64,000 nt of DNA from NCBI GenBank assembly GCA_963826535.1, contig CAWGXL010000011.1:576809-640808 (forward strand). Direction: 5' to 3'. The notes under the pieces were generated by a model. The model worked only from the letters and a program-made list of their open reading frames with translations, did no database searches and had not been told where the DNA came from. Every line of letters starts with the position of its first letter. Position 1 is the stretch's first letter. Position numbers and translations under genes: made by a program. This document shows positions 29,492 to 64,000 of this stretch, one piece after another. The DNA is from an uncultured bacterium. GTDB taxonomy: Bacteria; Patescibacteriota; Microgenomatia; Levybacterales; UBA12049.

Positions 29492-29611
29492 ATGTGGTTT
29501 ATAAATGCAAATTCTTGCGTAAAGTATAGCATAGACTTAATCTTAAGAATGCAGGATATTTTTGACTTTAAGAACTGATATAATTTCTCTAAGTTTCTAT
29601 CCAAAAATATT

Positions 29612-32449: not shown

Positions 32450-32475
32450 GATTGATTGTGGATATGCATCCGTTC

Positions 32476-32559
32476 GTGAATAAAATTTTTTTTGCTGCGA
32501 AACTCGCCCCGCTGAGCGGGCTCAAACAGTCTTGCTGCAAAAAATTTTATTCACTCACT
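32476..32559. repeat. ~85-bp structured palindromic element, copy 2, between convergent gene ends
   Basis: GTGAATAAAATTTTTTTTGCTGCGAAACTCGCCCCGCTGAGCGGGCTCAAACAGTCTTGCTGCAAAAAATTTTATTCAC. The inner stem CCCGCTGAGCGGG is a perfect palindrome here. Confidence 0.7.
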
Positions 32560-32594
32560 AATTTTCACAATTCCTAAACGATTTCGCTGTTAAT

Positions 32595-33845
32595 TCAGCC
32601 TATTATTTTTGGGAAGGGGATGGGGATGATAAATTTTCCGCCTTGATTTGTGAACCATTGTTCTTTATTCATGATAGGTACAGCCGAATTCCAGGCAAGA
32701 ATTAGGATGTAATCAGGGATGTTTTTTTTGAGTGTATGCGGTGGAAGAATGGGGATGTGGTTTCCAGGCATATAGAGAAATTGTTTTGAGGGAGTACTAT
32801 CTGTTATATAGTCAATTGTTTGATTTGTGATGCCGCAAAAATTTAAAAGCGTAGTCGCTTTTGCAGGTGCTCCGTAACCCGCAATTTTTTTACCTTGTTT
32901 TTTTATATCAGCAAGAATACGAGTGAGTGTTTTTTTGATAATAAGAGGTTGTCTGGCAAATTTTTTATAGATTTTATCCTCATGGAGTTTAAGAAAACGT
33001 TCTTTCTGAATGAACTTTAGAACACTGTTTTTGACCTGAAAACGTCCTGACTTATGAGAGGCATAAATGCGCAGAGATCCTCCGTGGTTGGCTACATGCA
33101 ATACATCAAAAACTTGTAAATCGTACTTCTTCAATAAATAAATGATGGGATGGAGAGAGAAATAACAAATATGTTCATGATACATTGCATCAAACTCATT
33201 TTTATGGAGTAAGTCTGCAATGTATTGCACTTCAAAAATAAATATCCCATTGGGATCAAGTATTTTTTTTGTTGCAGCCAGAATGTCATGAATTTTATCG
33301 GTATGTGCTAAAACATTATTGGCTGTTATAATCCCTGCTTTTCCATATGTATTAAATAGGTGCGGGACAATATGCGTGCCAAAAAAATCGTTAATTGATT
33401 CAAGATGTTTTTTATTAACTATTGTTGTGATGTTGGTTGCAGGATCAACTCCTAATACCCGCGCGCCAAGTTTTTTTAAAGGTTTCAGAAGAACTCCGTC
33501 ATTACTGCCTACGTCAATTGTTAATTGTTTTATCTGACGCGGAAATTTTTTTATAAGATCTAGAGCATATTCATCAAAATGTTTAATTAAGGTGGAAGAT
33601 GCGGAGGAAAAATATGCATAATTATTGAACAGTTGGCCACGATCTACGATATCAAGTAATTGAGCCAAATGACAATTGTGACAGTAATAAATGTTAAGCG
33701 GAATTTTTAGATCAGGTTTTTTTAAGTCATTTTTTGTGAGATAGGAATTCGCAAGAGGCAGATTGCCCAGAGATAAAAAACGTGTGAGTTTTTTGCCTTT
33801 ACATATTAGACAGTGTTTGCTTTTTTTAATCTTAGCTTTCAACAT
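32595..33845 (-). CDS. SAM-dependent sugar C-methyltransferase-like protein (paralog of 27071..28351) with an N-terminal Zn-ribbon
   Basis: CLICKGKK...CHNCHLAQ zinc ribbon and LTIDVGSNDGVLL; 416 aa. Confidence 0.65.
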   Translation of the reverse strand: MLKAKIKKSKHCLICKGKKLTRFLSLGNLPLANSYLTKNDLKKPDLKIPLNIYYCHNCHLAQLLDIVDRGQLFNNYAYFSSASSTLIKHFDEYALDLIKKFPRQIKQLTIDVGSNDGVLLKPLKKLGARVLGVDPATNITTIVNKKHLESINDFFGTHIVPHLFNTYGKAGIITANNVLAHTDKIHDILAATKKILDPNGIFIFEVQYIADLLHKNEFDAMYHEHICYFSLHPIIYLLKKYDLQVFDVLHVANHGGSLRIYASHKSGRFQVKNSVLKFIQKERFLKLHEDKIYKKFARQPLIIKKTLTRILADIKKQGKKIAGYGAPAKATTLLNFCGITNQTIDYITDSTPSKQFLYMPGNHIPILPPHTLKKNIPDYILILAWNSAVPIMNKEQWFTNQGGKFIIPIPFPKIIG

Positions 33846-36949: not shown

Positions 36950-39841
36950 ATGAAGAAATTAATGCAAAAGTTTATTTTGTTAATAATTCATTTTATTTTT
37001 GTTTTGGCGATTATTGGAGTTTTTTGGCCAATGGCGGAGTGGTATTTTAATAATCCGACATTGCCACCTTCGCGGGAGAATGTGCTGGCAAATCCATTAT
37101 GGGGTGTGGATTTTTTTTATACTGCATCCCTTGTTAATCTTCTGAAGGATAATTTTGTACTTCCGAATGCGAGTTGGGGATACGCGTGGTTTAGCGGTTG
37201 GCCTTCGTTGTCAAGCTATCCCATTTTGCACTATTATTTAATTGTTCCCTTAATAGCATTTTTTTCATTGATTGCAGCTATTAAGATTTGGATGCTGGCA
37301 AGTCTTGCAATTTACTTTATTGGTATTTATGCGGTGTGTTTTGTCTTATCACGAAACTTCGCAGTTTCATTTGTATTATCTATTGCCGCTATTTATTCAG
37401 TAGGCGTATATGGGACATTAATGTGGGGGGGGAGCCTCCCAAGTCACGCAACACAAGCATTTTTTCCTTGGGTTTTGTTTTTTATCATTGTTTACCTTAG
37501 GAACCGGCGGAAAATTTATCTATTTCTATCCGCCTTACTTGCAGGCTTGGCAATTTTGGCTCATCCACAGGTTGTAATTGCCTATATATATCCCTCAGCT
37601 GTGCTGCTATTTATATTTTCATTTGGTACTATGAAGTTTTTTCAGCGAATTAAATCAATGTTTATTTTCCTCATAGTCTCATTTTTAGTCGGATTCCCGT
37701 TGTTATATTCGAGTATGGGCAGCGCATTAAAAGTCCTATTTTTGACAGATATAAATAATGTTGCTTCCTCAACCGCAAGAGTGTCATCGGAATACGGCGC
37801 AGATGTGGCGGCATTTCATCATGCACAACCTTATCGCATATATACTGATACAAATAACATTATTTTTCTACTGCTCGGCGTTTCTTTTGTTTTATTCATT
37901 CTTTTTTTAGTATTTAAAAATAGGGGAAAACGGTTACTCGAAGTATTTCCATATGCCGTTCTGGCAATATTTTCTACCGGTTATGTTTGGATGTTTGCAT
38001 ACGGCATGTCTATTTTCCATGGAGGATGGTATCGGCTTTTTTGGGCAGTTCCATTTTGGGTGGGAATGCTTATTGCGGTATTATGGGGGGCGTGGCAGGA
38101 ACAAGCTAAGGCTTTTATAAAAAAAAGAAGCGTATATATTCCACTTTATATTTTACTCAATGTTGTTGTAATGATTGCAGGGTATGTTACGGTAATTAAA
38201 TCATCAGACGAAACAATGAAAAAAATTATACCCCGCAGCAACACTTCATCTGCTTTTCCAAACATACTAAATTTACGTACCAATGAGCAGGGGCGATTGG
38301 AATTAAAAAAAGAGCTTGTCCCTTCGTGGATGAATGGGGATGATAAGCAATACCGGATGTATGCGGGTGACCAGACTATTAATATTTGGTGGAATAGCCT
38401 ATATAGTATGCCTCTTGCCCGAGGGTATTTTGATCCTCCGGTAACAGCACAAAATAGAGGATATTTTTTTCTTACAGATGCCTCTTTGAGTCAGAGCACA
38501 AGAGGGAAAGGTGAAGATCAATTAGTCGGAGAATTTAATTATCCACCGGATATTGCTTTAAACAATACTTTGTTTTTTGTTGATTGGTACGGCATTAAAT
38601 ATATTGAATCAGGTCCAACGCTTGCGGCTTTTACGCCAATACCCAAATCATTTAATAATAGTACATATATAAAACGTGACGAACGGCTTGATTTTAATGG
38701 GGAAAAATATAACACAGGCGATATGTCGCTTCATTTTTATGAAGTGAACGATGAATATTCCAGTCCGATTTTTCAAGCAACTAATGCTCAAACGTTGGGA
38801 ATTATAGGTACTGACACAGGGTATGAAACTATTCAACGTGGCATGGCGGATATGAATCTTTCTTCAAAACATGTTGTACCTATAAAGCTTGGGCAGAATA
38901 TTGATAAACTTAGAACAAGTGATCTCTTAGCCATGGATGCTCTAATTGTATATGACTATAATTATTCAGATAAAGGTAGCGCATATAGATTACTAAGCGA
39001 TTATTTAAAAACAGGAAAAAAGATATTCATTGACACAGGCGTAGAGGTAAAAGAAGCAAATAGTAGGGATCTGCCTGAAGTTTTCCCGATGGGAAGATCA
39101 GAAAGAAAGCCATTGGGTAAGGAATGGGAATTTGAAATACCAGATTCAGAATTTTCCGCGGGTATTGATTTTTCCGCTTTTGATCCGCCTATTTTTGATA
39201 AGCAAAGTTGGAGCATTACTTATCCAATAGAGGAAAAAGATGTCAGAGAGGGAAGTAATATTTTGCTTAAGAACAAGGGTAAACCAGTCCTGATCTTATA
39301 TGAGGTCAATAGTGGACAGGTTATTTGGAGTGGAATTAACTTGCCTTATCATACAATTCGAACACATAATGCTGAAGAGGTGCGTTTTTTCAAAGTCATA
39401 ATAGAACATTTACTCGGGGGAACCGGAGCGATAAAAGAGCCCGTATATGAAGTTCAATTTATTAATCCCCAAAAAAGGCAAATTACTCTTCAGGGGGCAA
39501 AAGGGGTTCTTTTTAAAGAACAGGCGTATCCAGGTTGGAGCGCATGGGTGTCCAGTGACCAATATAATAAAAATTTAGAAATTTTTAAAGCCGGGCCTGC
39601 TTATCCAGGCTTTATGTATGTAAGATTACCTGACTCTGAACAAAAAGCAACTGTTACGCTTTCTTATAGCGGCTCTATTACTGCATGGATAGTATCTGTA
39701 ATATCAGCAATAATTGTGCTTTTGATTATGGAAGAAATATTATTAAAAGGCGCAATTTTAGGGAGATTTTATAAGTCACTTTTTAGAAAATCGCTTAGAC
39801 ATTTAAAATCCTGGTGGAGTAAGGATGATGCTGACGAATAA
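36950..39841 (+). CDS. Large polytopic membrane protein, YfhO-like / putative GT-C glycosyltransferase (paralog 4, 963 aa; tandem to paralog 3)
   Basis: NIWWNSLYSMPLARGYFDPP; GKPVLILYEVNSGQVIWSGINLPYHT; YPGWSAWVSSDQYNKNLEIFKAGPAYPGFMYVRLP; a final TM and the tail KSWWSKDDADE. Confidence 0.5.
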   Translation: MKKLMQKFILLIIHFIFVLAIIGVFWPMAEWYFNNPTLPPSRENVLANPLWGVDFFYTASLVNLLKDNFVLPNASWGYAWFSGWPSLSSYPILHYYLIVPLIAFFSLIAAIKIWMLASLAIYFIGIYAVCFVLSRNFAVSFVLSIAAIYSVGVYGTLMWGGSLPSHATQAFFPWVLFFIIVYLRNRRKIYLFLSALLAGLAILAHPQVVIAYIYPSAVLLFIFSFGTMKFFQRIKSMFIFLIVSFLVGFPLLYSSMGSALKVLFLTDINNVASSTARVSSEYGADVAAFHHAQPYRIYTDTNNIIFLLLGVSFVLFILFLVFKNRGKRLLEVFPYAVLAIFSTGYVWMFAYGMSIFHGGWYRLFWAVPFWVGMLIAVLWGAWQEQAKAFIKKRSVYIPLYILLNVVVMIAGYVTVIKSSDETMKKIIPRSNTSSAFPNILNLRTNEQGRLELKKELVPSWMNGDDKQYRMYAGDQTINIWWNSLYSMPLARGYFDPPVTAQNRGYFFLTDASLSQSTRGKGEDQLVGEFNYPPDIALNNTLFFVDWYGIKYIESGPTLAAFTPIPKSFNNSTYIKRDERLDFNGEKYNTGDMSLHFYEVNDEYSSPIFQATNAQTLGIIGTDTGYETIQRGMADMNLSSKHVVPIKLGQNIDKLRTSDLLAMDALIVYDYNYSDKGSAYRLLSDYLKTGKKIFIDTGVEVKEANSRDLPEVFPMGRSERKPLGKEWEFEIPDSEFSAGIDFSAFDPPIFDKQSWSITYPIEEKDVREGSNILLKNKGKPVLILYEVNSGQVIWSGINLPYHTIRTHNAEEVRFFKVIIEHLLGGTGAIKEPVYEVQFINPQKRQITLQGAKGVLFKEQAYPGWSAWVSSDQYNKNLEIFKAGPAYPGFMYVRLPDSEQKATVTLSYSGSITAWIVSVISAIIVLLIMEEILLKGAILGRFYKSLFRKSLRHLKSWWSKDDADE

Positions 39842-55938: not shown

Positions 55939-57060
55939 ATGCAAGTGCTCCTTATCAGTCCAAAAGATCCCAAAGTTCCTTCCAATTTAAAGTTTCTTAT
56001 GGGTGGAGAAAATACTTATACACAATCTTTACTTTCTACACCACCTTCAGGGATTACTTATACGCATTTTATAGATGCTTTGGTAAAAGGGGATATAGAA
56101 TATTCTTTTTGGCAGAAAATTTTATCAAATTTAATAAAGTTTCGAATACTTCCCCTTGACAGCGGGTATCATTGCATAAAGCTAAATAAACGGTTTGATC
56201 TTATCTTTTGTCATGGATATAATTTGAAATTAAACGGTTCGATTCTGCCGCCAGTAGTATTGGGAGATAGTTCCAGCAACTATCTTTTTTTGAAAGACTA
56301 TTTAGGGTGGAAAGAGTCAAGGATACGGAGGCTATACGCAATAAGGAAAAAACTACATAGATATTTAGGAGTATTTGACCGCGATCTTAATCTGCAAAAT
56401 TGTTTTAAGCTGATTGTATTCTCTGAATTTGCTAAAAAATTACATGTTTCTCTTGGCGCAGACAGGAATAAAATCTCAGTTATTTATCCCGGTATACCGG
56501 TCCGGAGAATAAAGAAAAAGAAACAGATTAAAATAATACAAATATTTTTTGCAGGGGTTTGGTTTGAACGAAAGGGAGGAATGGTTCTATTGCATGCTTT
56601 TCAAATACTTAAAAAAAAGTATCCGAATATTCATCTTACTATTTTAGGTCCTATTCCGGAAGGTGTTTCTATCAATAAAAAGGAAATAACACAGATTGAT
56701 TTTGTTTCTTATGATAGGTTATTGAATGAGTTTTATCCTACGGCGGATATATTTGTTCTAGTTCCTCCCAAGGTTGAGGGTTTTGGGATGGTGGCTGTTG
56801 AAGCTGCGTCTTACGGCATACCAACTGTTGTTAGTAATGTTTGTGCTTTACCGGAAATTGTTGAGCAGGGAAAGACGGGATTCATTGTTGAGCGGAATAA
56901 TCCTCGCGAACTTGTAAAAGCGCTTGAAAAGCTTATTCAAAATCCGAGTTATAGGAAAAAGATGGGTGAAGCAGCCAGAAGACGATTTTTACAAAAATTT
57001 ACTACTGACATTATGAATAAACAACTCCTTCGTATTTACCGGACAGCTATTCGAAAATAA
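55939..57060 (+). CDS. Glycosyltransferase family 4
   Basis: FFAGVWFERKGG...TILGPIPE...FVLVPPKVEGFGMVAVEAASYGIPTV...GKTGFIVE. Confidence 0.85.
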   Translation: MQVLLISPKDPKVPSNLKFLMGGENTYTQSLLSTPPSGITYTHFIDALVKGDIEYSFWQKILSNLIKFRILPLDSGYHCIKLNKRFDLIFCHGYNLKLNGSILPPVVLGDSSSNYLFLKDYLGWKESRIRRLYAIRKKLHRYLGVFDRDLNLQNCFKLIVFSEFAKKLHVSLGADRNKISVIYPGIPVRRIKKKKQIKIIQIFFAGVWFERKGGMVLLHAFQILKKKYPNIHLTILGPIPEGVSINKKEITQIDFVSYDRLLNEFYPTADIFVLVPPKVEGFGMVAVEAASYGIPTVVSNVCALPEIVEQGKTGFIVERNNPRELVKALEKLIQNPSYRKKMGEAARRRFLQKFTTDIMNKQLLRIYRTAIRK

Positions 57061-57066
57061 GTAATA

Positions 57067-57882
57067 CTATTTTTGTTTAAATTTATATATTGTCCATAAT
57101 ACCCAAACTAAGGATTTATAACTCAGGAAAGTTGCTGTAAGTAGGGGATGTTTGATTAAATCTCGCCAGGAATGCAACCAAATAGAAGTGCGATAGAGAA
57201 AACTTTTTTGTTGAGAGAATGCCTTGGGGTATTTTTGGGCATAGTGGTGGATATAATGAATATAATACATTTCTTTTTGAAGGAGTTTTTTTAAACTGTT
57301 TCTTGCTTCATGATGATTAACGATGGTATTTTGGGGGATATGCAGTTTGAAGCCATTAGACAAGAAAGTTTGAGTTATTGCCCAATCTTCACCGGAGATT
57401 AGCGTTTCATCGTACCCGCCAAGTTGTAAGAATTCCTTTCGCGGAAAGAATCGGGCGGCAATTAGCCAGCGCGCGTTATTGTAGCAGTTTTTTTCGAGGC
57501 TCAATGCTTTGGTGAGAAATGTATAACCAATTGCTTTTTCTTTTATGGCAATGATTATAGGGGTTTGTTTTTTTTGTATTTGTGAAACCACTTCAGAAAC
57601 GACGTTATTTGATAATTCCATATCCGCGTCAATAAAAAGAAGCCACACGCCTTGAGCTTTCTTTGCTCCGGTATTCCGTTGGCTTGAGCGTTCATTGCCG
57701 GCAATGTAAACATTTTCGGTGAAGCGATGCGCCAGGACCACAGTTTTGTCTTGTGAATGATTATCAACCACTATGATCTCTATTTTCCCTTTATAGTTTT
57801 GGTTTTTTATTGATTGTAGACAGCGTACTATATTGCTTTCTTCGTTTTTGGTTGGGATTATGATTGAGACGAGAGGATGCAT
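57067..57882 (-). CDS. Glycosyltransferase family 2
   Basis: VSIIIPTKNEE, VVDNHSQDKT, FIDADM. Confidence 0.85.
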   Translation of the reverse strand: MHPLVSIIIPTKNEESNIVRCLQSIKNQNYKGKIEIIVVDNHSQDKTVVLAHRFTENVYIAGNERSSQRNTGAKKAQGVWLLFIDADMELSNNVVSEVVSQIQKKQTPIIIAIKEKAIGYTFLTKALSLEKNCYNNARWLIAARFFPRKEFLQLGGYDETLISGEDWAITQTFLSNGFKLHIPQNTIVNHHEARNSLKKLLQKEMYYIHYIHHYAQKYPKAFSQQKSFLYRTSIWLHSWRDLIKHPLLTATFLSYKSLVWVLWTIYKFKQK

Positions 57883-57884
57883 TG

Positions 57885-60119
57885 TTATTTTAGGGCATTA
57901 GTTATCAAATCCCAACTTTTTTGTGTGCTTTTTTCCCAGTTAAAATTTTTTGCCCATTTTTTTCCTTCATTGCTCATATTTTGATATAATTTCTTATCAG
58001 TAATTAGTTTGTTTATTCCATCGGCTAATGCTTTGCTGTTTTTTTCTACCAAAAGTCCGGTTTGATTATTTTTAATAGAATCTTTTAAACCAACGACATT
58101 ATATCCTACGGCAGGTGTGCCTACGGCGTTTGCTTCAATTACATTGAGCCCCCAGCCTTCTCTTATTGAGGGATGAACAAGTATCCATGCTTTCGCAAGT
58201 AATTTGTTTTTGTAAGTTTCAGACACGAAGCCGAAAAGCGACACATTTTTTTCTAATTTTTTATTTACTATAATATTTTTAATTTTAGCGAGATATTTTT
58301 CGTTTATTGCTTTGCCAACTACCCACAATTTAGCGGTAGAGTTTATTTGTAAGACTGAAGATAAGGCTTTTATTGCATCTTCTATGCCTTTATCAGGAGA
58401 AATTTGGGCAAGATAAATCAGAATTGGATTTTTTTCTTTTTTATATTCTCTGCCCCTGTCTCGGCCTCCGGCCTCCGACCCATGGTTAATTATGTTAATT
58501 CTTTTTTTGTCGATATTATACTTTATTAGTTCTTCGGCGATTGATTCAGAACTTGTTATGAATGGTACTTTTTTGTAGGGAATGAAAAACAGCGGTTCAA
58601 CCAGATATCCTAGTAGACTTAGCGGGAAAAATGCATTTTTAAACCAGGCATTTTTGGCAGGTTCATTGATAAGTGCAATAATTTTATCGGTTTTTTCGTA
58701 GAGAAACGAGAAAAAGGGTAAAAAGTGAAAGCTATCAATAATCAGATCAACATGGCCAAATTTTTTTTGGATGTAATATGCATATGCCCAGAGGTGTACC
58801 GTATAGTGAGTGCCCTTCCGGATTATTTTTATTCCATTAATTTCTTCATTGTTTAACGCGTTATTAAACTTTGAGGCAAACCACTTTACATTTGCGCCAT
58901 TTTTCGCCCAGAATTTGGCGTGTTCTAAAAGTGAGATTTCAGCACCTCCTGCCAGGGGGTGCTTGGGGTCGCGCCAATTCAGTATTACGATATTCTTGTG
59001 GTAAGGCATGATATTTGAATCATATTTTTTGCGGGTTTTTTCGTCTCTTACCGTCGTAATTGTGTTTGGGAAAATCGCATGCATTACCTCATTCACTGTA
59101 ATCATTTCCATCCCACCCACTGCATCTTTTGGAACATATCTTTTTAAATCATATCTATACCATGGTTTACTTTCCTTTGACCTAATCAGTGTTACTAATT
59201 TTTTATTGTATGGTAAACTCCATTTTTCATTGGTTGATGCCCATAATGTGATTATTTTTTTATTTAGAGCTACTGCTAAATGTCCGAAGCCATTATCATT
59301 ACAAATTAGTAGATTTACCTGGTTTAGCAGGCCAAGCGCATCATTAAATTTAAGGTTATTGATTAATTTACAATTATTAGGGTTATTTACTAATGTGTGT
59401 AATTTTTTGCCTACATCTATCTCGTCAGGGCCGCTGAATATCAGCACTTTTTTCTTTTTTTGAACAATCAGGAATTTAATTATTTGTGCGTAGTTCTCAA
59501 CCGGCCAACGTCTCAATAGGGCGGCAGGGGATTTGGTCGAGCCCGGATGGATGCCGATAATATCATTTTGACGCCAGCCCAATTGAGCTATTTGTTTTTC
59601 TCCAAAGTTAATGTCAGTTTTATTTAATTTAAAATCATATTTTATTTCTTCTTTTATTATTTCCTTCCTCCAATCTATATTAAATGCCTTCAACATGTTT
59701 AAATTGTTAAACATATTGTGTACTTTTTCATCAACAGTAATTAAATCCGTATCAAGAAAATTGCATTCTGAATGATATCCAGTTTGAAACCTATGAGCTA
59801 TTCTTTTTTTTGCTCCGATAAGCCATTGAGCTATGTGATATTCACGCCGGTACGAGGGAAAAATTAACATTGACACGTCATATTTATTTTTTCGTAAAGA
59901 TACAAGTTGGATTAAGCCTTTCGATGGATTTTCGTTGTATAGGGATAGTTTATATACATGGTCGACATTTTTGTTATTTGCAAATATATATCTCACCCCT
60001 TCAAACATACAAGCTATATCAATTGCGATCTCAGGTTTTTTCTTTTTGAGTAAGCTTATCATTGGCGTAGCCATCAGTGCATCTCCGATAGCAGGTAAAC
60101 AAAGTATAAGTACTTTCAT
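57885..60119 (-). CDS. Fusion of a GT9 ADP-heptose heptosyltransferase domain (N-terminal) and a GT4 glycosyltransferase domain (C-terminal)
   Basis: N-terminal MKVLILCLPAIGDALMATPMISLLKKKKPEIAIDIA (the GT9 k.L.ir...iGD.vl.tP block) and ...LICNDNGFGHLAVAL. C-terminal half with LAGGAEISLLEHAKFWAKNGANV (GT4 N-terminal domain) and ...HPSIREGWGLNVIEANAVGTPAVGYN...TGLLVE. Confidence 0.7.
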   Translation of the reverse strand: MKVLILCLPAIGDALMATPMISLLKKKKPEIAIDIACMFEGVRYIFANNKNVDHVYKLSLYNENPSKGLIQLVSLRKNKYDVSMLIFPSYRREYHIAQWLIGAKKRIAHRFQTGYHSECNFLDTDLITVDEKVHNMFNNLNMLKAFNIDWRKEIIKEEIKYDFKLNKTDINFGEKQIAQLGWRQNDIIGIHPGSTKSPAALLRRWPVENYAQIIKFLIVQKKKKVLIFSGPDEIDVGKKLHTLVNNPNNCKLINNLKFNDALGLLNQVNLLICNDNGFGHLAVALNKKIITLWASTNEKWSLPYNKKLVTLIRSKESKPWYRYDLKRYVPKDAVGGMEMITVNEVMHAIFPNTITTVRDEKTRKKYDSNIMPYHKNIVILNWRDPKHPLAGGAEISLLEHAKFWAKNGANVKWFASKFNNALNNEEINGIKIIRKGTHYTVHLWAYAYYIQKKFGHVDLIIDSFHFLPFFSFLYEKTDKIIALINEPAKNAWFKNAFFPLSLLGYLVEPLFFIPYKKVPFITSSESIAEELIKYNIDKKRINIINHGSEAGGRDRGREYKKEKNPILIYLAQISPDKGIEDAIKALSSVLQINSTAKLWVVGKAINEKYLAKIKNIIVNKKLEKNVSLFGFVSETYKNKLLAKAWILVHPSIREGWGLNVIEANAVGTPAVGYNVVGLKDSIKNNQTGLLVEKNSKALADGINKLITDKKLYQNMSNEGKKWAKNFNWEKSTQKSWDLITNALK

Positions 60120-61189
60120 ATTTTTTGGGTTATTTTAGCAGCTTCTAATAAATCTATTGCATAATAGTCTGGTTCGAGTTTTAAAACTTTGGGCAATTTT
60201 TCTCCAAGTTTAATAGTTTTTACGTTTGCTTCTCTGCCTGCAATTATGTCATTCGGATCATCTCCGACAATCCAGCTATCCTGTAAGCTAATTTTATATT
60301 CCTTTACCGCTTGTAGAAGCAATCCTATATTTGGTTTTCTACAGTTACATTTTTTATCCGGAGAATGGGGGCAGTAATAAACTTTATTTATTGTTATATT
60401 GTCTTTTTTGAATTTATCCAGCATCCAATTATTTAATAAATGGAAATCTTTTTCAGTGTAATATCCTCTTCCAATCCCGCTTTGATTGCTAATTATAAAT
60501 AGCTTGTAATTAGTAAGCGAAAGTAATTTGAGTGCCTTTATTGAATTTGGAGTAAAATTAAAATTTTTTATTTTATGAATATATCCATTCTTGTTTTCAT
60601 TAATTGTACCATCTCTATCTAAAAAAATTGCCCTTTTAGCGGGTTGATCGTAACTCTCACGTATTTTATTTAAGATGTTTGTAGTGGATTTTCCTTTTAC
60701 CCATTTTAATACATGAATTTTTCCACCGTTACTTTCTACTACTTCTCTTTCTATACAATTTCTTCCCCAATCAGATCCATTGCAATGAACAATGGGTTTT
60801 ATTTTATTGAGTATCTCTTTCGGGTTGATTTCATCGAAAATAGTCACATAATCAACACATTCGAGGGCTGCAAGAATCTGCGCGCGTTCGGTTTCGTGAA
60901 AGATTGGCCTGCTTGGTCCTTTGTATTTTTTAATAGAGATATTACTATTGAGGAGAATTATTAATATATCACCCTGGTTTTTTGCTTCTTCAATTGAATG
61001 GATATGTCCTGTATGAATAAGGTCGAATCCGCCATTATATGTAACAATTTGTTTATCTTTTTTTTTCAGTTCCTCTACAATTTTTAAAATTTGCCAATGC
61101 GATTTAATTTTTGAGTTCATTGATGTCAACTTTTCTACTTTTTTCAATACGGTAGGTATCTGCTTCCAAATGTTGGGTACTGACTTCAA
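60116..61189 (-). CDS. hldC: Fusion of D-glycero-beta-D-manno-heptose-1-phosphate adenylyltransferase (RfaE/HldE domain II, HldC-like) and D,D-heptose-1,7-bisphosphate phosphatase (GmhB, HAD-IIIA). The likely true start is the internal Met near 61120
   Basis: VTYNGGFDLIHTGHIHSIEEAKNQGDILIILLNSNISIKKYKGPSRPI (cytidylyltransferase HxGH block of HldE-II); then FLDRDGTIN (DxDGT), ISNQSGIGRGYY and CPHSPDKKCNCRKP (the GmhB Zn-binding block). Confidence 0.75.
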   Translation of the reverse strand: MKSVPNIWKQIPTVLKKVEKLTSMNSKIKSHWQILKIVEELKKKDKQIVTYNGGFDLIHTGHIHSIEEAKNQGDILIILLNSNISIKKYKGPSRPIFHETERAQILAALECVDYVTIFDEINPKEILNKIKPIVHCNGSDWGRNCIEREVVESNGGKIHVLKWVKGKSTTNILNKIRESYDQPAKRAIFLDRDGTINENKNGYIHKIKNFNFTPNSIKALKLLSLTNYKLFIISNQSGIGRGYYTEKDFHLLNNWMLDKFKKDNITINKVYYCPHSPDKKCNCRKPNIGLLLQAVKEYKISLQDSWIVGDDPNDIIAGREANVKTIKLGEKLPKVLKLEPDYYAIDLLEAAKITQKI

Positions 61190-62414
61190 TAAGTGATGAA
61201 TCTTCTAAGCCTCGAAATCTATGCTTGACTCCTGTTGGAATGCGAATAAAATTGCCCGGTCCCAAATTTTTTAGCTTGTTTCCCATTTCAATTCGAATAA
61301 GTCCTTTGGTTATGATGAACATCTCATCTTTTAATTTGTGATAATGAAGACTGGATTGAAATCCTTTTTTTACTGATATAAGTTTGCAGCAATATCTTTC
61401 ATTGTTCTCAAGTAATTTTTCATTTCCCCATACTTTAGGGATTATGTTAACCGTATCGATGTGGCTGTCATTGATTAAATTTGCTTCTAATTCTTTAATT
61501 GTGAGTGTTGCTGTACCGGTTTTTTTAACCACAATACTAGCTGCAAGGTTTGCTAATAGAGTTGATGAATATAAATCTAATTTACAAAGTAATCCTAAAG
61601 TAATAACTGAGATGACAGTATCGCCTGCTCCAGTGACATCATATACTTGCGCAAGGCTAGCCGGCAACTCTTTTGAAGTGCCATTTTTATAGAAAAGTGT
61701 AATTCCTTTGTCGCCTTTTTTCAATAGAATGTTGGTTTTAAAGTAATTTGTTAAATCTTTACCAATTTCATAAATATCTTGTTTTGTACTCATCTCTTTA
61801 GCTTCTTGTAAATTGGGTGTAAGTAAATCAATGCCTTTAAAAAAAACTTTGTTTGCAGGCTTTATATCCGCCGTTATAATTTTTTTGTATTTTTTTGCAT
61901 AGGCTACAATATTTTGTGTCAGATCTTTAGAAAAGAGACCTTTACCATAATCAGAAAGAATAATCCCGTCACAGTTTTGAATGTCTTTATTTATTAGTCT
62001 TAGTAATTGTTTTTCTTCTTGTTGAGAAAAGTTATAAGTATTTTCTGTATCGACTCTTAATAATTGGTGTATTCCCGAAATAAATCTGTGTTTTACGGTT
62101 GTTGGTCTAGATTTTGTCAGTATAAAATTATGAGCGATTTTATTGTCACGAAGTAAATCAACAAGTTTATTTCGGTTCCCGTCTTCACCTATTATGCTGC
62201 ATAATGTAACTTTTGCTCCGAGAGCAACTAAATTATTAGCTACGTTCGCAGCTCCGCCTAGTTTCATTCTTTCATCTATCTTGTTAAGAACAGGTACGGG
62301 TGCTTCGGGGGAGATTCTTGGAACGGTTCCAAATGTGTATTTATCCAGCATTACGTCGCCAATGACGAGGACATGTTTAGTGGCAAATTCTTTCAGTTTA
62401 TTTTTTAAGTTCAT
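61104..62414 (-). CDS. hldA: Fusion of D-glycero-beta-D-manno-heptose-7-phosphate kinase (RfaE/HldE domain I, PfkB family, HldA-like) and a C-terminal type-II phosphomannose-isomerase-like cupin domain
   Basis: HVLVIGDVMLDKY..., ...GAANVANNL and DVTGAGDT (PfkB signature); the C-terminal ~120 aa is KVWGNEKLL...LHYHKLKDEMFIITKGLIRIEMGNKLKNLGPGNFIRIPTGVKHRF...LIEVSTQHLEADTYRIEK, which is the pWG...H.hR.E.w.v..G.a.........g....iP.g..Hr......liEvq.g..l.e.Di.R cupin pattern. Confidence 0.75.
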   Translation of the reverse strand: MNLKNKLKEFATKHVLVIGDVMLDKYTFGTVPRISPEAPVPVLNKIDERMKLGGAANVANNLVALGAKVTLCSIIGEDGNRNKLVDLLRDNKIAHNFILTKSRPTTVKHRFISGIHQLLRVDTENTYNFSQQEEKQLLRLINKDIQNCDGIILSDYGKGLFSKDLTQNIVAYAKKYKKIITADIKPANKVFFKGIDLLTPNLQEAKEMSTKQDIYEIGKDLTNYFKTNILLKKGDKGITLFYKNGTSKELPASLAQVYDVTGAGDTVISVITLGLLCKLDLYSSTLLANLAASIVVKKTGTATLTIKELEANLINDSHIDTVNIIPKVWGNEKLLENNERYCCKLISVKKGFQSSLHYHKLKDEMFIITKGLIRIEMGNKLKNLGPGNFIRIPTGVKHRFRGLEDSSLIEVSTQHLEADTYRIEKSRKVDINELKN

Positions 62415-62448
62415 ATTTATTCGATAAAGTTATTAATATTTATATTTT

Positions 62449-63315
62449 CTAATTTGGTTTGGTGAGCAACGTCTCAAGATTTACTTTTCTCGATCGCGAT
62501 AGATGGTAGGCTTTGCGATAATTAGATCTTTGTATGTCGGCGCGTTTTTTTGTTTTGCTTACGATATTAATTTGTGTATAATACCTCATTATTTTCAATC
62601 TATAGAATATAGCACATGTATCCCATAACATTCTAAATATTATTTTCCAAAAATTTGCATTTTTTATAGTTGATTTCGCTTCATTAAAATTGATTTCTAT
62701 AGGTGCCTCAAAAATTCTGGTATATCCTAAATGGTATGCGACAGCTAAAATCTCAACGTCGAAGGCGTAGCTTTTGACTAAGAGTCTTGATAGAACATCT
62801 TTAATAACTTTTCGGTTAAAAAATTTTATGCCTACTTGTGTATCACGGATTTTGAAGCTAAAAAGTGAGGCTGTCAATATGCGATAACCCCAGGAGAGTG
62901 TTTTTCTCCATTGAGGATAGCCATACACTTTCGATACAGGGTGAAGTTTGGAGCCGACAATTATATCAGCGTTGTACCAGTCCATATGATTTAGGAGCAT
63001 TAAAAGCCCGGAAGGGTGAATATCCATGCCGGCATCAATAAAACCGATTATATTTCCTTTTGCGTGGAGCATTCCGAATCTTACTGCGTGGCCTTTTCCC
63101 TGATTTTTTTCATAAGCGAGCACTTTTATTTTTGGATATTTAATTGGGAGTTGATTCGCGAGACGGCGTATGAGTTTTGTGTTATTTGAACCATCAATAA
63201 CAATTATTATTTCGTATTTACATCCCAGTGTGTCTAAGGATGATTGAATTTTCTTGATATTTTTTGTGATGGTTTTTTCCTGGTTATAGGCAGGTATAAC
63301 TACTGAGAGTAGCAT
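62449..63315 (-). CDS. Family-2 glycosyltransferase of the polyprenyl-phosphate sugar synthase type (DPM1/GtrB-like)
   Basis: LSVVIPAYNQEKTI...IIIVIDGSNNT...KNQGKGHAVRFGM...FIDAGMD. Confidence 0.8.
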   Translation of the reverse strand: MLLSVVIPAYNQEKTITKNIKKIQSSLDTLGCKYEIIIVIDGSNNTKLIRRLANQLPIKYPKIKVLAYEKNQGKGHAVRFGMLHAKGNIIGFIDAGMDIHPSGLLMLLNHMDWYNADIIVGSKLHPVSKVYGYPQWRKTLSWGYRILTASLFSFKIRDTQVGIKFFNRKVIKDVLSRLLVKSYAFDVEILAVAYHLGYTRIFEAPIEINFNEAKSTIKNANFWKIIFRMLWDTCAIFYRLKIMRYYTQINIVSKTKKRADIQRSNYRKAYHLSRSRKVNLETLLTKPN

Positions 63316-63684: not shown

Positions 63685-64000
63685 ATGACCTTTTTTGGAA
63701 AATACGAACTCCTGAAAAAATCTATTCCTGTTCCGGCTATGGCGAATGATACACAGTCGGTTGATTGTGATTTTTCAGACTTTATGCTTGCAAGTAAAAA
63801 TTGCTACGATTGTATTGGGGGCTATCTTGAAGACTGCATGTATGTTGATATGGGGGCATTTAATACTAAGATGGCAGATTGTGCCTTTGTTTATCAATCG
63901 GAGAAGTGTTATGAATGTGTTGATTCCAGTAAGTGTCATAGCTGTACATACGTTATGGATTGCATCAATAGTACAGATTGCCACTTTTCTGCTTTATTAA
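63685..64000 (+). CDS. 5' part of a Cys-rich repeat protein that runs off the window end
   Basis: The frame-1 ATG at 63685 is open to the window end (not in the supplied track). The translation MTFFGKYELLKKSIPVPAMANDTQSVDCDFSDFMLASKNCYDCIGGYLEDCMYVDMGAFNTKMADCAFVYQSEKCYECVDSSKCHSCTYVMDCINSTDCHF shows a ~10-residue periodicity of [SD]xxC[YH]xC. The competing frame-2 ORF 63746..64000 looks like hydrophobic noise. Confidence 0.35.
   Translation, partial: MTFFGKYELLKKSIPVPAMANDTQSVDCDFSDFMLASKNCYDCIGGYLEDCMYVDMGAFNTKMADCAFVYQSEKCYECVDSSKCHSCTYVMDCINSTDCHFSALL

What the first reader, a model, noticed from the sequence alone, without database searches (positions are those of the whole stretch)
57885..62414. 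ADP-heptose operon with non-canonical fusions and no GmhA: kinase plus PMI-type cupin, adenylyltransferase plus GmhB, and GT9 plus GT4
Five minus-strand genes are tightly packed or overlapping (62449..63315 GT2; 61104..62414; 60116..61189; 57885..60119; 57067..57882 GT2). The heptose-7-P kinase domain (DVTGAGDT) is fused to a C-terminal cupin resembling type-II phosphomannose isomerases. The heptose-1-P adenylyltransferase domain (GGFDLIHTGH) is fused to GmhB (FLDRDGTIN ... CNCRKP), whereas in canonical HldE the kinase and adenylyltransferase are fused and GmhB is separate. The GT9 heptosyltransferase domain is fused to a GT4 domain. The window contains no SIS-domain sedoheptulose-7-P isomerase (GmhA). 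GmhA catalyses a ketose-to-aldose isomerisation that sets the manno configuration at C2, the same chemistry that PMI performs on fructose-6-P. The cupin fused to the kinase is therefore a plausible non-orthologous replacement for GmhA. That arrangement would channel S7P through the isomerase directly to the kinase. If the organism is a monoderm without LPS (CPR-like), heptose is presumably destined for a surface polymer or a protein glycan.
Basis: partly seen in the sequence, partly recalled or inferred. Interest (0 to 1): 0.65.

Follow-up and report, generated by a model that had tools for sequence, protein, structure and literature searches.

The report
Cupin-type heptose isomerase fused to kinase
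A five-gene sugar operon from a probable ultra-small (CPR) bacterium makes ADP-heptose with fused enzymes, and a small metal-binding cupin domain probably does the first step that the unrelated enzyme GmhA does in E. coli; no one appears to have described this enzyme family.

Summary
Five tightly packed minus-strand genes encode GT2, HldA kinase + cupin, HldC adenylyltransferase + GmhB phosphatase, GT9 + GT4, and GT2. No SIS/GmhA sequence occurs anywhere in the 64-kb window.

The cupin belongs to a large, strongly conserved family. Its four metal ligands (His, His, Glu, His) are invariant. Its only specific family resemblances are to two metal-dependent aldose-ketose isomerases, the type-II phosphomannose isomerase domain and D-lyxose isomerase.

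The decisive evidence is comparative. In different lineages this cupin is fused, in varying orders, to HldA, HldC, GmhB and GT9, but never to SIS. Close relatives of the kinase carry a GmhA/SIS domain in exactly the cupin's position. Among 33 complete HldA+HldC+GmhB clusters, 25 have the cupin, 5 have SIS, 3 have neither and none has both.

The most likely function is a cupin-type sedoheptulose-7-phosphate isomerase (confidence about 0.6).

Caveats:
- There is no biochemistry.
- The rest of the source genome could not be searched.
- At least three related genomes also carry a divergent GmhA-like SIS gene in a separate NTP-transferase module, so the cupin is better seen as the ADP-heptose module's own isomerase than as a genome-wide replacement.

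I found no prior description.

The parts
62449..63315 (-). GT2 glycosyltransferase, first gene of the operon
   Evidence: PF00535, 8e-25. A 34-nt gap separates it from the next gene. The divergent plus-strand ORF at 63685 sets the upstream boundary.
61104..62414 (-). HldA kinase + cupin fusion gene (436 aa)
   Evidence: ORF. Domains. A 100% identical protein, P0001, lies on an 894,453-bp contig, and about 100 of the 120 listed protein clusters share the PfkB + cupin domain content.
61479..62396 (-). HldA domain (D-glycero-beta-D-manno-heptose-7-phosphate 1-kinase, PfkB fold), aa 7-312
   Evidence: TIGR02198, 329.1 bits, E 2.5e-98. Burkholderia HldA structure 4e84, E 3e-46 over aa 9-309. DVTGAGDT motif.
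61131..61451 (-). Cupin domain, aa ~322-428: proposed metal-dependent sedoheptulose-7-phosphate isomerase
   Evidence: Cupin_2, PF01050 and PF07385 hits. AlphaFold model with pLDDT 94.3, all-beta barrel. Foldseek places it among the small metal cupins. Invariant residues. Fusion and synteny evidence.
61302..61364 (-). Cupin motif 1, G351-x5-H357-x-H359-x2-K362-x-E364-x6-G371 (GFQSSLHYHKLKDEMFIITKG)
   Evidence: H357, H359, K362, E364 and G371 are invariant in 100 fusion proteins. They are 99-100% conserved in 146 family representatives, including standalone forms.
61221..61256 (-). Cupin motif 2, G387-x5-P393-x-G395-x2-H398 (GNFIRIPTGVKH), carrying the fourth metal ligand
   Evidence: H398 is invariant.
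60116..61120 (-). HldC + GmhB fusion gene (334 aa from ATG 61120)
   Evidence: ATG at 61120 overlaps the upstream gene by 17 nt. The exact 334-aa product is on record as P0267.
60659..61081 (-). HldC domain (heptose-1-phosphate adenylyltransferase)
   Evidence: TIGR02199, 1.8e-46. PF01467. PDB 5x9q, E 1e-20. GGFDLIHTGH motif.
60203..60637 (-). GmhB domain (heptose-1,7-bisphosphate 7-phosphatase, HAD-IIIA)
   Evidence: TIGR00213, 151.2 bits (cutoff 149.6), and NF006506, 1.9e-51. E. coli GmhB 2gmw, E 1e-29. DRDGT and C-x-H...C-x-C motifs.
59082..60119 (-). GT9 (ADP-heptose-dependent heptosyltransferase-like) domain, aa 1-346 of the 744-aa protein
   Evidence: PF01075, 8.4e-19. TIGR02195, 4e-24 over aa 2-346. 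PDB 3tov and WaaF 1psw, ~1e-10. By the coordinates, its start codon (60119-60117) shares two bases with the upstream gene's stop codon (60118-60116).
57888..58949 (-). GT4 domain, aa ~391-744 of the same protein
   Evidence: PF00534, 1.4e-39; PF13692, 1e-25; PF13439. In the loci scanned with my own HMMs, the GT9+GT4 fusion was seen only here and in the closest relative, L008. L011/L091 has a 781-aa GT9 + Glyco_trans_1_2 protein.
57067..57882 (-). GT2 glycosyltransferase, last gene of the operon
   Evidence: PF00535, 2e-25. A 2-nt gap follows the GT9-GT4 stop. The next gene, 55939-57060, is convergent on the plus strand.

Best explanation
The operon is a self-contained ADP-D-glycero-beta-D-manno-heptose synthesis-and-transfer module built from fused enzymes.

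Proposed pathway:
1. Sedoheptulose-7-phosphate is isomerised to D-glycero-D-manno-heptose-7-phosphate by the C-terminal cupin domain of the first fusion protein. The proposed mechanism is metal-dependent and goes through a cis-enediol, as in PMI and D-lyxose isomerase. This step is inferred.
2. The N-terminal HldA domain of the same polypeptide phosphorylates C1. This rests on homology to a characterised enzyme.
3. The GmhB domain of the second fusion protein removes the 7-phosphate, and its HldC domain adenylylates the product to ADP-heptose. These steps also rest on homology.
4. The GT9 domain transfers the heptose to an acceptor, and the fused GT4 domain adds the next sugar. This step is inferred.

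The cupin is the functional analogue of the SIS-fold enzyme GmhA but is not its homologue. It belongs to a widespread, undescribed cupin family that serves as the isomerase of ADP-heptose modules in CPR bacteria and DPANN archaea, and probably in some Planctomycetota and Bdellovibrionota.

No HldD-type 6-epimerase is identifiable in the window, so the product is probably the D,D-heptose form. The destination is a non-LPS surface glycan or glycoconjugate in a probable CPR organism.
For: 1. Chemistry. The cupin's only specific family resemblances are to metal-dependent aldose-ketose isomerases that make or use manno/lyxo-configured sugars. PF01050 scores above its Pfam cutoff. Of 42 family members, 42 hit PF07385, 41 hit PF01050 and none hits RmlC PF00908. 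The E. coli CpsB PMI-like domain aligns to the family HMM at E 2e-12, sharing the motifs [KR]xWG, Y..K, S-x-[HQ]-x-H-x-x-[KR]-x-E and IP.G..H. By established sugar stereochemistry, S7P to D-glycero-D-manno-heptose-7-P is the one-carbon homologue of F6P to M6P.

2. The domain looks catalytic. H357, H359, E364 and H398, plus K327, W329, G330, E332, C342, K344, K362, E410, D419 and R422, are invariant or at least 98% conserved. This holds in 100 fusion proteins and in 146 family representatives, including standalone proteins. The cupin model is confident, with pLDDT 94.3.

3. Rosetta-stone fusions. I classified the best 150 family representatives from an exhaustive search of 1.84 billion proteins. 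The architectures found were:
- HldA+cupin: 15
- cupin+HldA: 9
- HldC+cupin: 2
- cupin+GmhB: 2
- cupin+HldA+HldC: 1
- GmhB+cupin+HldC: 1
- GT9+cupin+HldA: 1
- HldA+HldC+cupin: 1
- any fusion with SIS: 0

4. Positional equivalence with GmhA. The nearest cupin-less kinases are of two kinds. Some are HldA+SIS fusions with SIS at the same C-terminal position (P0110, P0113). Others have a bona fide gmhA gene immediately upstream (L006, L088) or one gene further upstream (L089). The L006 protein scores 226 bits on TIGR00441 against a cutoff of 209.

5. Synteny. In 80 reference-genome loci found with the cupin alone, HldA lies within 3 kb in 47. HldC lies within 5 kb in 33, GmhB in 26 and GT9 in 29.

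6. Complementarity. Among 33 complete HldA+HldC+GmhB clusters, 25 have the cupin only, 5 have SIS only, 3 have neither and none has both (Fisher p = 2.4e-4).

7. Precedent. In some archaea and CPR bacteria a cupin-type PGI stands in place of the conventional PGI (PMC7304191).
Against: - No enzyme of this family has been assayed, and fold comparison does not discriminate among cupin functions. All small cupins score about E 1e-7 in Foldseek.
- Only 64 kb of an 894-kb contig could be examined, so a gmhA elsewhere in this genome is not excluded.
- Three related genomes with the HldA-cupin module also encode a divergent GmhA-like SIS protein 6-12 kb away (L016, L020, and L011/L091). The cupin is therefore not always the only candidate isomerase in a genome. 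In every such case the SIS gene sits next to a PF00483 NTP-transferase, and once also next to a GHMP kinase. That is a separate GDP-heptose-like module.
- In an unbiased sample of 80 cupin-less HldA loci, only 10 had a SIS gene within the sampled locus (9 within 5 kb of the kinase). Absence of SIS next to hldA is therefore common anyway. Without conditioning on complete clusters the contrast is weak (2/51 against 10/80, p = 0.13; adjacency 0/51 against 9/80, p = 0.012).
- 32 of the 80 cupin loci have no heptose genes nearby. These are mostly Planctomycetota and DPANN, in housekeeping synteny. The family may not be isofunctional.
- Sequence alone cannot separate S7P from F6P as the substrate.
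Confidence: 0.6

Rival explanations
1. The cupin is a real aldose-ketose isomerase, but on a different substrate or with a different stereochemical outcome. It might convert F6P to M6P, so that the module makes ADP-mannose. It might convert S7P to the C2 epimer (D-glycero-D-gluco-heptose-7-P). Or it might interconvert heptose phosphates downstream of a GmhA encoded elsewhere.
For: The closest named families are PMI and D-lyxose/D-mannose isomerases. Sequence cannot distinguish C6 from C7 phosphosugars. The co-occurrence with GmhA-like SIS genes in three genomes would make sense if the two isomerases did different things. The HldA, HldC and GT9 domains score below NCBIfam equivalog cutoffs: 329 against 345, 157 against 181 and 85 against 135. 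Altered specificity is therefore possible.
Against: The kinase, phosphatase and adenylyltransferase domains are nearest to the heptose-specific enzymes and to nothing else. GT9 is a heptosyltransferase family. SIS-type GmhA occupies the same fused or adjacent position in sister lineages, which argues for the same reaction. From my own knowledge, no natural ADP-mannose pathway is known.
Confidence: 0.15
2. The cupin is a nucleotide-heptose-modifying enzyme acting after HldC on ADP-heptose. It would be an RmlC/DdahB-like C3/C5 epimerase, an FdtA-like ketoisomerase, or a substitute for the HldD 6-epimerase.
For: The only published heptose-cupin link is the pair of Campylobacter GDP-heptose C3/C5 epimerases DdahB and MlghB, which have a cupin fold (PMC7949155). 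The window also encodes an SDR dehydratase/epimerase-like protein and two sugar C-methyltransferases about 30 kb away.
Against: None of 42 members hits PF00908, and only 1 of 42 hits FdtA. The RmlC-type epimerases in that paper are about 180 aa, and a term search of the paper found no occurrence of 'metal'. This family instead has an invariant His/His/Glu/His site. Minimal conserved clusters contain only HldA, GmhB, HldC, GT9 and the cupin, with no 4-oxidase or dehydratase to make the keto-sugar such epimerases need. C6 epimerisation needs redox chemistry that a cupin of this type lacks. That last point is an inference.
Confidence: 0.05
3. The cupin is not catalytic. It is a ligand-sensing, regulatory or oligomerisation domain that modulates HldA, for example by feedback from a sugar or a metal. 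The pathway relies on a SIS-type GmhA encoded elsewhere in the genome.
For: Cupins often serve as sensor domains. 18 of 42 members weakly hit AraC_binding. Divergent GmhA-like SIS genes are widespread in CPR, with 554 hits, and gmhA is frequently unlinked to hldA in bacteria generally. The rest of this genome was not searchable.
Against: The four metal ligands are invariant, along with about 14 further polar or charged residues, across fused and standalone members from several phyla. That is typical of an active site. A regulator of HldA would not be expected to fuse interchangeably to HldC, GmhB or GT9. Nor would it be expected to exclude SIS from complete clusters.
Confidence: 0.07

Closest known systems
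GmhA (LpcA), the SIS-fold sedoheptulose-7-phosphate isomerase (TIGR00441; PF13580)
   Same: The proposed reaction and pathway position are the same: first step, upstream of HldA. GmhA occupies the same fused position (HldA+SIS in P0110 and P0113) or an adjacent one in sister lineages. From my own knowledge of the GmhA literature, GmhA is also metal (Zn)-dependent.
   Different: The fold is unrelated: a cupin beta-barrel against the SIS alpha/beta fold. There is no detectable sequence similarity, and no SIS hit in the protein or the window. This is analogy, not homology.
Type-II phosphomannose isomerase C-terminal cupin domain (PF01050; AlgA/ManC/CpsB family, TIGR01479)
   Same: The two domains are homologous over the part aligned. 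PF01050 scores 34-38 bits, above its cutoff, and TIGR01479 positions 356-462 are matched. CpsB shares the motifs [KR]xWG, Y..K, the metal motif, and IP.G..H. The IEV and D..R motifs also match by eye. The chemistry is the same one carbon shorter, F6P to M6P.
   Different: The first metal ligand is His here and Gln in CpsB. The domain is fused to HldA, HldC or GmhB rather than to a GMP nucleotidyltransferase. It scores far below the equivalog cutoff, 32 bits against 373. The genomic context is heptose genes, not mannose genes.
[not shown]
   Same: 42 of 42 family members hit PF07385. PDB hits are 2y0o at 8.5e-8 and 7nzo at 3e-5. This family is also a metal-dependent cupin aldose-ketose isomerase that produces the manno/lyxo C2 configuration.
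   Different: Those enzymes act on unphosphorylated sugars and are larger (175-246 aa). The matches are weak and partial.
Cupin-type phosphoglucose isomerase (PF06560; Pyrococcus furiosus PgiA)
   Same: This is an evolutionary precedent. A cupin takes over a sugar-phosphate aldose-ketose isomerisation normally done by the conventional PGI, including in some CPR genomes (PMC7304191). From my own knowledge, that conventional PGI is SIS-related.
   Different: PF06560 was not listed among the Pfam hits of the window protein or of the 42 family members scanned. The substrate is different (G6P/F6P).
HldE, the bifunctional kinase/adenylyltransferase of E. coli (NF008454)
   Same: The HldA domain matches HldE positions 2-318, and the HldC domain matches positions 310-473.
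   Different: The domains are partnered differently here: kinase with isomerase, and adenylyltransferase with phosphatase. The HldC+GmhB or GmhB+HldC fusion recurs in 14 of the loci examined. JGI names some kinase+cupin proteins as the bifunctional kinase/adenylyltransferase, although their listed Pfam domains include no adenylyltransferase domain.
DdahB/MlghB, the GDP-heptose C3/C5 epimerases of Campylobacter jejuni (RmlC-like cupins)
   Same: They have a cupin fold and act in heptose metabolism (PMC7949155).
   Different: They act on nucleotide-4-keto-heptoses, and a term search of that paper found no mention of a metal. None of 42 members of this family hits the RmlC family PF00908.

Membership tests
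GmhA / SIS-type sedoheptulose-7-phosphate isomerase | SIS (PF01380/PF13580) fold and a TIGR00441 match | tested here: not met
   There is no SIS hit in the fusion protein or in any window ORF. tblastn with four GmhA/SIS queries gives a best E of 0.17. It is not a member; the claim is functional analogy only.
GmhA / SIS-type sedoheptulose-7-phosphate isomerase | Catalyses S7P to D-glycero-D-manno-heptose-7-P | not testable with these tools
   This needs an enzyme assay or complementation of a gmhA mutant.
Cupin superfamily, metal-dependent sugar aldose-ketose isomerases (type-II PMI domain PF01050 / D-lyxose isomerase PF07385) | Cupin beta-barrel fold | tested here: met
   The AlphaFold model has pLDDT 94.3 and 12 strands. 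Foldseek matches small cupins, including Thermococcus PMI 7zvy with TMq 0.75.
Cupin superfamily, metal-dependent sugar aldose-ketose isomerases (type-II PMI domain PF01050 / D-lyxose isomerase PF07385) | Two cupin motifs supplying His/His(Gln)/Glu + His metal ligands | tested here: met
   G-x5-H357-x-H359-x4-E364-x6-G and G-x5-P-x-G-x2-H398 are both present, and the ligands are invariant.
Cupin superfamily, metal-dependent sugar aldose-ketose isomerases (type-II PMI domain PF01050 / D-lyxose isomerase PF07385) | Score above the curated Pfam threshold | tested here: met
   PF01050 scores 34.3 bits for the whole protein and 37.8 bits for the domain, against a cutoff of 23.6. PF07385 scores 22.5 bits for the domain alone against 20.8, but only 17.6 bits in the full protein.
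Cupin superfamily, metal-dependent sugar aldose-ketose isomerases (type-II PMI domain PF01050 / D-lyxose isomerase PF07385) | Typical type-II PMI architecture (GMP nucleotidyltransferase + PMI cupin) at equivalog level (TIGR01479) | tested here: not met
   TIGR01479 scores 31.9 bits against a cutoff of 373, over the C-terminal part only. The fusion partner is HldA, not a PF00483 domain. This is a sister family, not a type-II PMI.
HldA (heptose-7-phosphate 1-kinase) | TIGR02198 rfaE_dom_I equivalog match and the PfkB signature | tested here: inconclusive
   329.1 bits against a cutoff of 345, just below, over the full domain. The best and only PDB hit at E<=1e-10 is HldA 4e84, at 3e-46. The DVTGAGDT motif is present.
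GmhB (heptose-1,7-bisphosphate 7-phosphatase) | TIGR00213 subfamily match and the HAD DxDxT motif | tested here: met
   151.2 bits against a cutoff of 149.6. E. coli GmhB 2gmw matches at 1e-29. DRDGT is present. Anomer specificity was not determined.
HldC (heptose-1-phosphate adenylyltransferase) | TIGR02199 rfaE_dom_II match and the (H/T)xGH motif | tested here: inconclusive
   157.5 bits against a cutoff of 181.5. PDB 5x9q matches at 1e-20. HTGH is present.
GT9 heptosyltransferases | PF01075 match above threshold | tested here: met
   68.3 bits against a cutoff of 22. It is not at the level of any LPS heptosyltransferase equivalog: TIGR02195 scores 85 against 134.6. The acceptor is unknown.
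RmlC-like nucleotide-sugar 3,5-epimerases (including Campylobacter DdahB/MlghB) | PF00908 match | tested here: not met
   0 of 42 family members hit PF00908. An invariant metal site is present.

The most novel reading that the evidence does not exclude
A previously unrecognised cupin family is the second, evolutionarily independent sedoheptulose-7-phosphate isomerase of life. It is the built-in first enzyme of ADP-heptose modules throughout CPR bacteria and DPANN archaea, and it also occurs in Planctomycetota and Bdellovibrionota. It has repeatedly fused to each downstream enzyme. If so, current pathway reconstructions under-call heptose biosynthesis wherever gmhA looks 'missing'. Organisms without an outer membrane, including archaea, would also be making ADP-heptose for non-LPS glycans.
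Probability: 0.5. Interest if true: 0.7.

Novelty: new variant of a known kind. Interest (0 to 1): 0.6.

Why it matters
If the cupin is an S7P isomerase, it adds a non-homologous isofunctional enzyme to a well-studied pathway (GmhA, HldA/HldE, GmhB, HldC).

- **Annotation.** It would fix a systematic gap. Sources name these proteins 'cupin domain-containing protein' or 'PfkB family carbohydrate kinase', or mislabel them as bifunctional HldE. No NCBIfam model covers the domain beyond a weak match to TIGR01479 GMP_PMI.
- **Metabolic reconstruction.** It would change reconstructions for CPR and DPANN organisms, whose surface glycans are essentially unknown.
- **Wider relevance, from my own knowledge.** ADP-heptose is an innate-immune agonist, and GmhA has been proposed as an antibiotic-adjuvant target.
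- **Evolution.** It is a clear natural case of in-place displacement of one isomerase fold by another, parallel to the cupin and conventional PGIs.
- **Testability.** The hypothesis can be tested directly with one recombinant protein and a commercially available substrate.

Tried and rejected
1. The source contig around P0001 could not be fetched, because no gene with that product is on record in the look-up of encoding contigs. Nothing beyond the window was readable, so a whole-genome gmhA search was impossible.

2. I tried an indirect whole-genome test. I searched with a canonical GmhA and with a divergent CPR SIS protein, looking for hits on contigs whose length matches a cupin-fusion contig. 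None of the listed hits lies on an 894,453-bp contig. Only 120 hits are listed per search, so this is weak evidence. It did reveal one real co-occurrence, on the 63,985-bp contig.

4. The PDB sequence search returned only generic cupin matches. The quercetinases rank first because they contain two cupin domains.

5. My first control set of five hand-picked cupin-less kinase loci had SIS in 4 of 5 (p = 2e-4). This overstated the complementarity. An unbiased metagenome sample showed SIS in only 10 of 80 such loci. I therefore replaced that test with one conditioned on complete clusters.

6. The promoter and terminator scan gave counts equal to those from shuffled sequence, so it is uninformative.

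7. An HldD-like 6-epimerase is not identifiable in the window. The SDR at 28565-29491 scores 80 bits on TIGR02197 against a cutoff of 275.

8. The standalone cupins in Planctomycetota and DPANN sit among housekeeping genes, in ORFs that look like fabF, a UDP-sugar pyrophosphorylase, ddl and pepA, or gyrA and gyrB. I identified those neighbours by eye from their translations, and they give no functional clue.

9. Eight of the nine literature searches were aimed at a prior description. They combined sedoheptulose, GmhA, heptose, cupin, CPR, DPANN and Patescibacteria, and none found one.

Full report
**Observation**

The window region 57067-63315 carries five minus-strand ORFs at exactly the stated coordinates.
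- The 436-aa protein is a PfkB/HldA kinase over aa 7-312 (TIGR02198, 329 bits, E 2.5e-98). A cupin follows at aa ~322-428. It hits Cupin_2, the PF01050 type-II PMI C-terminal domain (above its cutoff), and the C-terminal part of TIGR01479.
- The second protein is HldC (TIGR02199) plus GmhB (TIGR00213, above its cutoff).
- The 744-aa protein is GT9 plus GT4.
- Both flanking genes are GT2.

Comparison with solved structures anchors the non-cupin domains to characterised enzymes. The kinase matches Burkholderia HldA 4e84 at 3e-46. The phosphatase matches E. coli GmhB 2gmw at 1e-29. The adenylyltransferase matches 5x9q at 1e-20. The GT9 domain matches 3tov and WaaF 1psw at about 1e-10.

One detail needs correction. 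The HldC-GmhB gene starts at ATG 61120, giving 334 aa and a 17-nt overlap with the upstream gene, not at TTG 61189.

The genes are separated by 34 nt, -17 nt, a start codon overlapping the preceding stop, and 2 nt, which is consistent with one operon. A divergent plus-strand ORF begins at 63685. The operon's upstream end is therefore inside the window, and the 369-nt intergenic gap cannot hold a gmhA gene.

No SIS domain occurs in any window ORF of at least 100 aa, and tblastn finds none at DNA level.

The rest of the window is a large glycan-biosynthesis island: many GT2 and GT4 genes, methyltransferases, two sugar C-methyltransferases, a Wzx-like flippase and PMT_2 GT-C enzymes.

**The organism**

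The exact protein lies on an 894,453-bp contig. GC content is about 36%. The nearest homologues with organism names are from Parcubacteria, Daviesbacteria, Liptonbacteria, Paceibacterota and Levyibacteriota. A CPR/Patescibacteria origin is therefore likely, but it is not proven, because the window holds no rRNA or tRNA.

**The cupin as a protein family**

The kinase+cupin architecture is not an assembly artefact. About 100 of the 120 listed protein clusters, at 40-73% identity and from independent assemblies, share the PfkB + cupin domain content.

Across 100 such proteins the following residues are invariant: H357, H359, E364 and H398 (the four canonical cupin metal ligands), and also W329, G330, E332, C342, K344, K362, G371, E410 and D419. 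K327, R399 and R422 are 99% conserved.

An exhaustive profile search with the cupin domain alone against 1.84 billion representative proteins found 151 representatives at E<=1e-30 and 3,030 at E<=1e-10. The active-site residues remain 98-100% conserved in the best 146 of these, most of which are standalone proteins of 105-190 aa.

The AlphaFold model of the domain is confident, with pLDDT 94.3. Fold comparison only says 'small metal cupin'. Thermococcus minimal PMIs, KdgF, oxalate decarboxylase and others all score about E 1e-7.

Sequence-family comparison is more specific.
- Of 42 diverse members, 42 hit D-lyxose isomerase, 41 hit the type-II PMI domain and none hits the RmlC-type epimerase family.
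- The PMI-like C-terminal domain of E. coli CpsB aligns to the family HMM at E 2e-12. It shares [KR]xWG, Y..K, S-x-[H/Q]-x-H-x-x-[K/R]-x-E and IP.G..H. The first metal ligand is His here and Gln in CpsB.

Both related families are metal-dependent aldose-ketose isomerases that generate the manno/lyxo C2 configuration. By standard carbohydrate stereochemistry, S7P to D-glycero-D-manno-heptose-7-P is the one-carbon homologue of F6P to M6P.

**Comparative genomics, the core of the argument**

*Fusions.* I classified the 150 best family representatives with HMMs built from the pathway domains. The cupin is fused to every other component of the pathway, in varying order, and never to SIS:
- HldA+cupin: 15
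- cupin+HldA: 9
- HldC+cupin: 2
- cupin+GmhB: 2
- cupin+HldA+HldC: 1
- GmhB+cupin+HldC: 1
- GT9+cupin+HldA: 1
- HldA+HldC+cupin: 1

These fusions must have arisen several times independently. They tie the cupin to the ADP-heptose pathway, whose only step without an assigned enzyme in these clusters is the isomerase.

*Position.* The closest kinases without a cupin are of two kinds. Some are HldA+SIS fusions with the GmhA domain at the same C-terminal position (P0110, P0113). Others have a bona fide gmhA gene immediately upstream (L006, L088) or one gene further upstream (L089). The L006 protein scores 226 bits on TIGR00441 against a cutoff of 209.

*Synteny.* In 80 reference-genome loci retrieved with the cupin alone, HldA lies within 3 kb in 47 and in the same ORF in 39. 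HldC lies within 5 kb in 33, GmhB in 26 and GT9 in 29. The loci come from CPR phyla, DPANN archaea, Planctomycetota, Bdellovibrionota, TM6, Verrucomicrobiota and an Asgard archaeon.

*Complementarity.* Among all loci in hand with a complete HldA+HldC+GmhB cluster (n = 33), 25 contain the cupin only, 5 contain SIS only, 3 contain neither and none contains both (Fisher p = 2.4e-4).

**Evidence that tempers the claim**

My first control set, five hand-picked loci with SIS in 4, was unrepresentative. In an unbiased metagenome sample of 80 cupin-less HldA loci, only 10 have SIS nearby, because gmhA is often unlinked. Without conditioning on complete clusters the contrast is modest: adjacency 0/51 against 9/80 (p = 0.012), and anywhere in the locus 2/51 against 10/80 (p = 0.13).

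The cupin and a GmhA-like protein do co-occur in some genomes.
- L016 and L020 have divergent SIS proteins 6-7 kb from the cupin. They score 56 and 86 bits on TIGR00441 against a cutoff of 209.
- The L020 type is a widespread CPR family with 554 hits, and JGI often labels its members 'D-sedoheptulose 7-phosphate isomerase'.
- One member lies on the same 63,985-bp contig as a kinase-cupin gene, about 12 kb away, inside a GHMP kinase-SIS-NTP transferase operon.

In all three cases the SIS gene is next to a PF00483 nucleotidyltransferase. This matches the HddA-GmhA-HddC layout of the GDP-alpha-heptose pathway, and the SIS gene is never next to HldA or HldC.

The simplest reading is two self-contained modules, each with its own isomerase. 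That fits the hypothesis about the cupin's function. It does mean, however, that 'the cupin replaces a missing GmhA' cannot be assumed genome-wide.

I could not search the remainder of the 894-kb source genome. The contig is not retrievable, and the contig-length fingerprint test was negative but weak.

Finally, 32 of the 80 cupin loci have no heptose genes nearby. They sit in conserved housekeeping neighbourhoods in Planctomycetota and DPANN. The family may therefore not be isofunctional throughout.

**Mechanism proposed**

1. S7P is isomerised by the metal-bound cupin through a cis-enediol. This step is inferred.
2. C1 is phosphorylated by the HldA domain of the same polypeptide. This rests on homology.
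3. The 7-phosphate is removed by GmhB, and the product is adenylylated by HldC, both on the second polypeptide. This rests on homology.
4. The heptose is transferred by GT9, and the glycan is extended by the fused GT4. This step is inferred.

No HldD-like epimerase is identifiable in the window, so the D,D-heptose form is likely. Substrate channelling between the cupin and the kinase is plausible but untested.

**Rival readings**

- An isomerase with a different substrate or product, such as F6P/M6P or the C2 epimer (confidence 0.15).
- An RmlC-like nucleotide-heptose epimerase, like Campylobacter DdahB/MlghB (0.05). The metal site, the absence of PF00908 hits and the lack of a keto-sugar-forming partner in the minimal clusters argue against this.
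- A non-catalytic regulatory domain (0.07). The invariant active-site-like residues and the interchangeable fusion partners argue against this.

**Other fusions**

HldC+GmhB (8 loci, including the window), GmhB+HldC (6) and HldC+GmhB+GT9 (1) are common in these lineages. That fusion is a lineage habit rather than a peculiarity of this genome.

GT9+GT4 was detected only here and in the closest relative, L008. One Saccharibacteria-labelled contig has a 781-aa GT9 + Glyco_trans_1_2 protein.

**Comparison with what is known, and novelty**

The cupin is not a GmhA, because the defining SIS fold is absent. It is a sister of the type-II PMI and D-lyxose isomerase cupins and a member of neither: it scores far below their equivalog thresholds and has a different architecture.

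The closest evolutionary precedent is the cupin-type PGI that stands in place of the conventional PGI in some archaea and CPR bacteria (PMC7304191).

Eight full-text searches combining sedoheptulose, GmhA, heptose, cupin, CPR, DPANN and Patescibacteria found no description of a cupin-type S7P isomerase. No NCBIfam model covers the domain beyond a weak match to TIGR01479 GMP_PMI, and source annotations are generic or wrong.

I rate it a new variant of a known kind. It would be a new analogous enzyme family for a known reaction, within the known class of cupin sugar-phosphate isomerases.

Interest is 0.6. A heptose or LPS specialist would be moderately surprised, the family is widespread in poorly understood lineages, and the hypothesis can be tested directly. 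It remains a prediction. Confidence that the cupin is an S7P isomerase is about 0.6.

Noticed in passing
L091:8975-11379 (contig CAYXSS010000003.1); also L016:15502-20260 and L020:15604-19852: CPR genomes carry a second, separate heptose-like module. It is built around a divergent GmhA-like SIS protein (56-86 bits on TIGR00441 against a cutoff of 209) that sits next to a PF00483 NTP-transferase. One case also has a GHMP kinase, one has a transaldolase plus a second GmhB, and one has an RmlC-like protein, a C-methyltransferase and a dehydratase. The L020-type SIS family has 554 hits, mostly in CPR. This suggests a GDP/CDP-heptose-type pathway in CPR.
   Followed up: partly
P0190 (809 aa), P0189 (472 aa), P0147 (606 aa): Extreme pathway fusions exist elsewhere: GT9+cupin+HldA, GmhB+cupin+HldC and cupin+HldA+HldC, each in a single polypeptide. 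Their organisms and contexts were not retrievable, because these ids come from the unannotated representative library.
   Followed up: no
L029, L032-L034, L036, L037, L039, L047, L048, L063, L085, L087 (Planctomycetota); L027, L050, L052, L055, L079 (DPANN): Standalone members of the same cupin family, with the active site intact, sit in conserved housekeeping synteny with no heptose genes within 10 kb. The Planctomycetota neighbours look like fabF, a UDP-sugar pyrophosphorylase, ddl and an aminopeptidase. The DPANN neighbours look like gyrB and gyrA. I identified these by eye from the translations. Whether they serve an unlinked heptose pathway or another function is unknown.
   Followed up: partly
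L019 and L021 (both on contig CAYHBZ010000001.1, 550,381 bp): One genome carries two HldA-cupin genes about 55 kb apart. One sits in a complete cluster with HldC, GmhB and GT9. The other stands alone.
   Followed up: no
L008, L019, L021, L024 (record titles): Several MAGs titled 'uncultured Gammaproteobacteria bacterium' carry loci whose closest relatives are all CPR. L008 is the nearest relative of this window, at 72-73% identity. The taxonomic labels look unreliable.
   Followed up: no
window 33987-36884 and 36950-39841 (+): Two adjacent paralogous proteins of about 965 aa, 34% identical over their full length, have hydrophobic N-terminal halves and no Pfam or NCBIfam hit. They lie in the middle of the glycan island and are possibly novel GT-C-like membrane enzymes.
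   Followed up: partly
window 2080-9165 (+): A giant 2,361-aa ORF combines N-terminal helix-turn-helix domains (HTH_23/28/29), a GT2 domain (aa ~450-800) and DUF2341. This is an odd pairing of DNA-binding-like and glycosyltransferase domains.
   Followed up: no
window 24295-33845: This stretch holds two sugar C-methyltransferases (27071-28351, 32595-33845), an SDR dehydratase/epimerase-like gene (28565-29491), a GFO/IDH/MocA oxidoreductase and a histidine phosphatase. The window holds no PF00483 nucleotidyltransferase, so HldC is the only nucleotide-sugar-forming enzyme seen. That raises the untested possibility that ADP-heptose itself is further modified.
   Followed up: no
window 63685-64000 (+), runs off the window end: A Cys-rich ORF with repeated C-x2-C and C-x-x-x-C spacing (…CYDCIGGYLEDCMYVD…CYECVDSSKCHSCTYVMDC…) is divergently transcribed from the heptose operon. 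It is incomplete, and its function is unknown.
   Followed up: no
JGI names (e.g. P0032, P0068): Some kinase+cupin proteins are named 'D-beta-D-heptose 7-phosphate kinase/D-beta-D-heptose 1-phosphate adenosyltransferase' (HldE), although their listed Pfam domains include no adenylyltransferase domain. This is a systematic annotation error caused by their HldE-like length.
   Followed up: no
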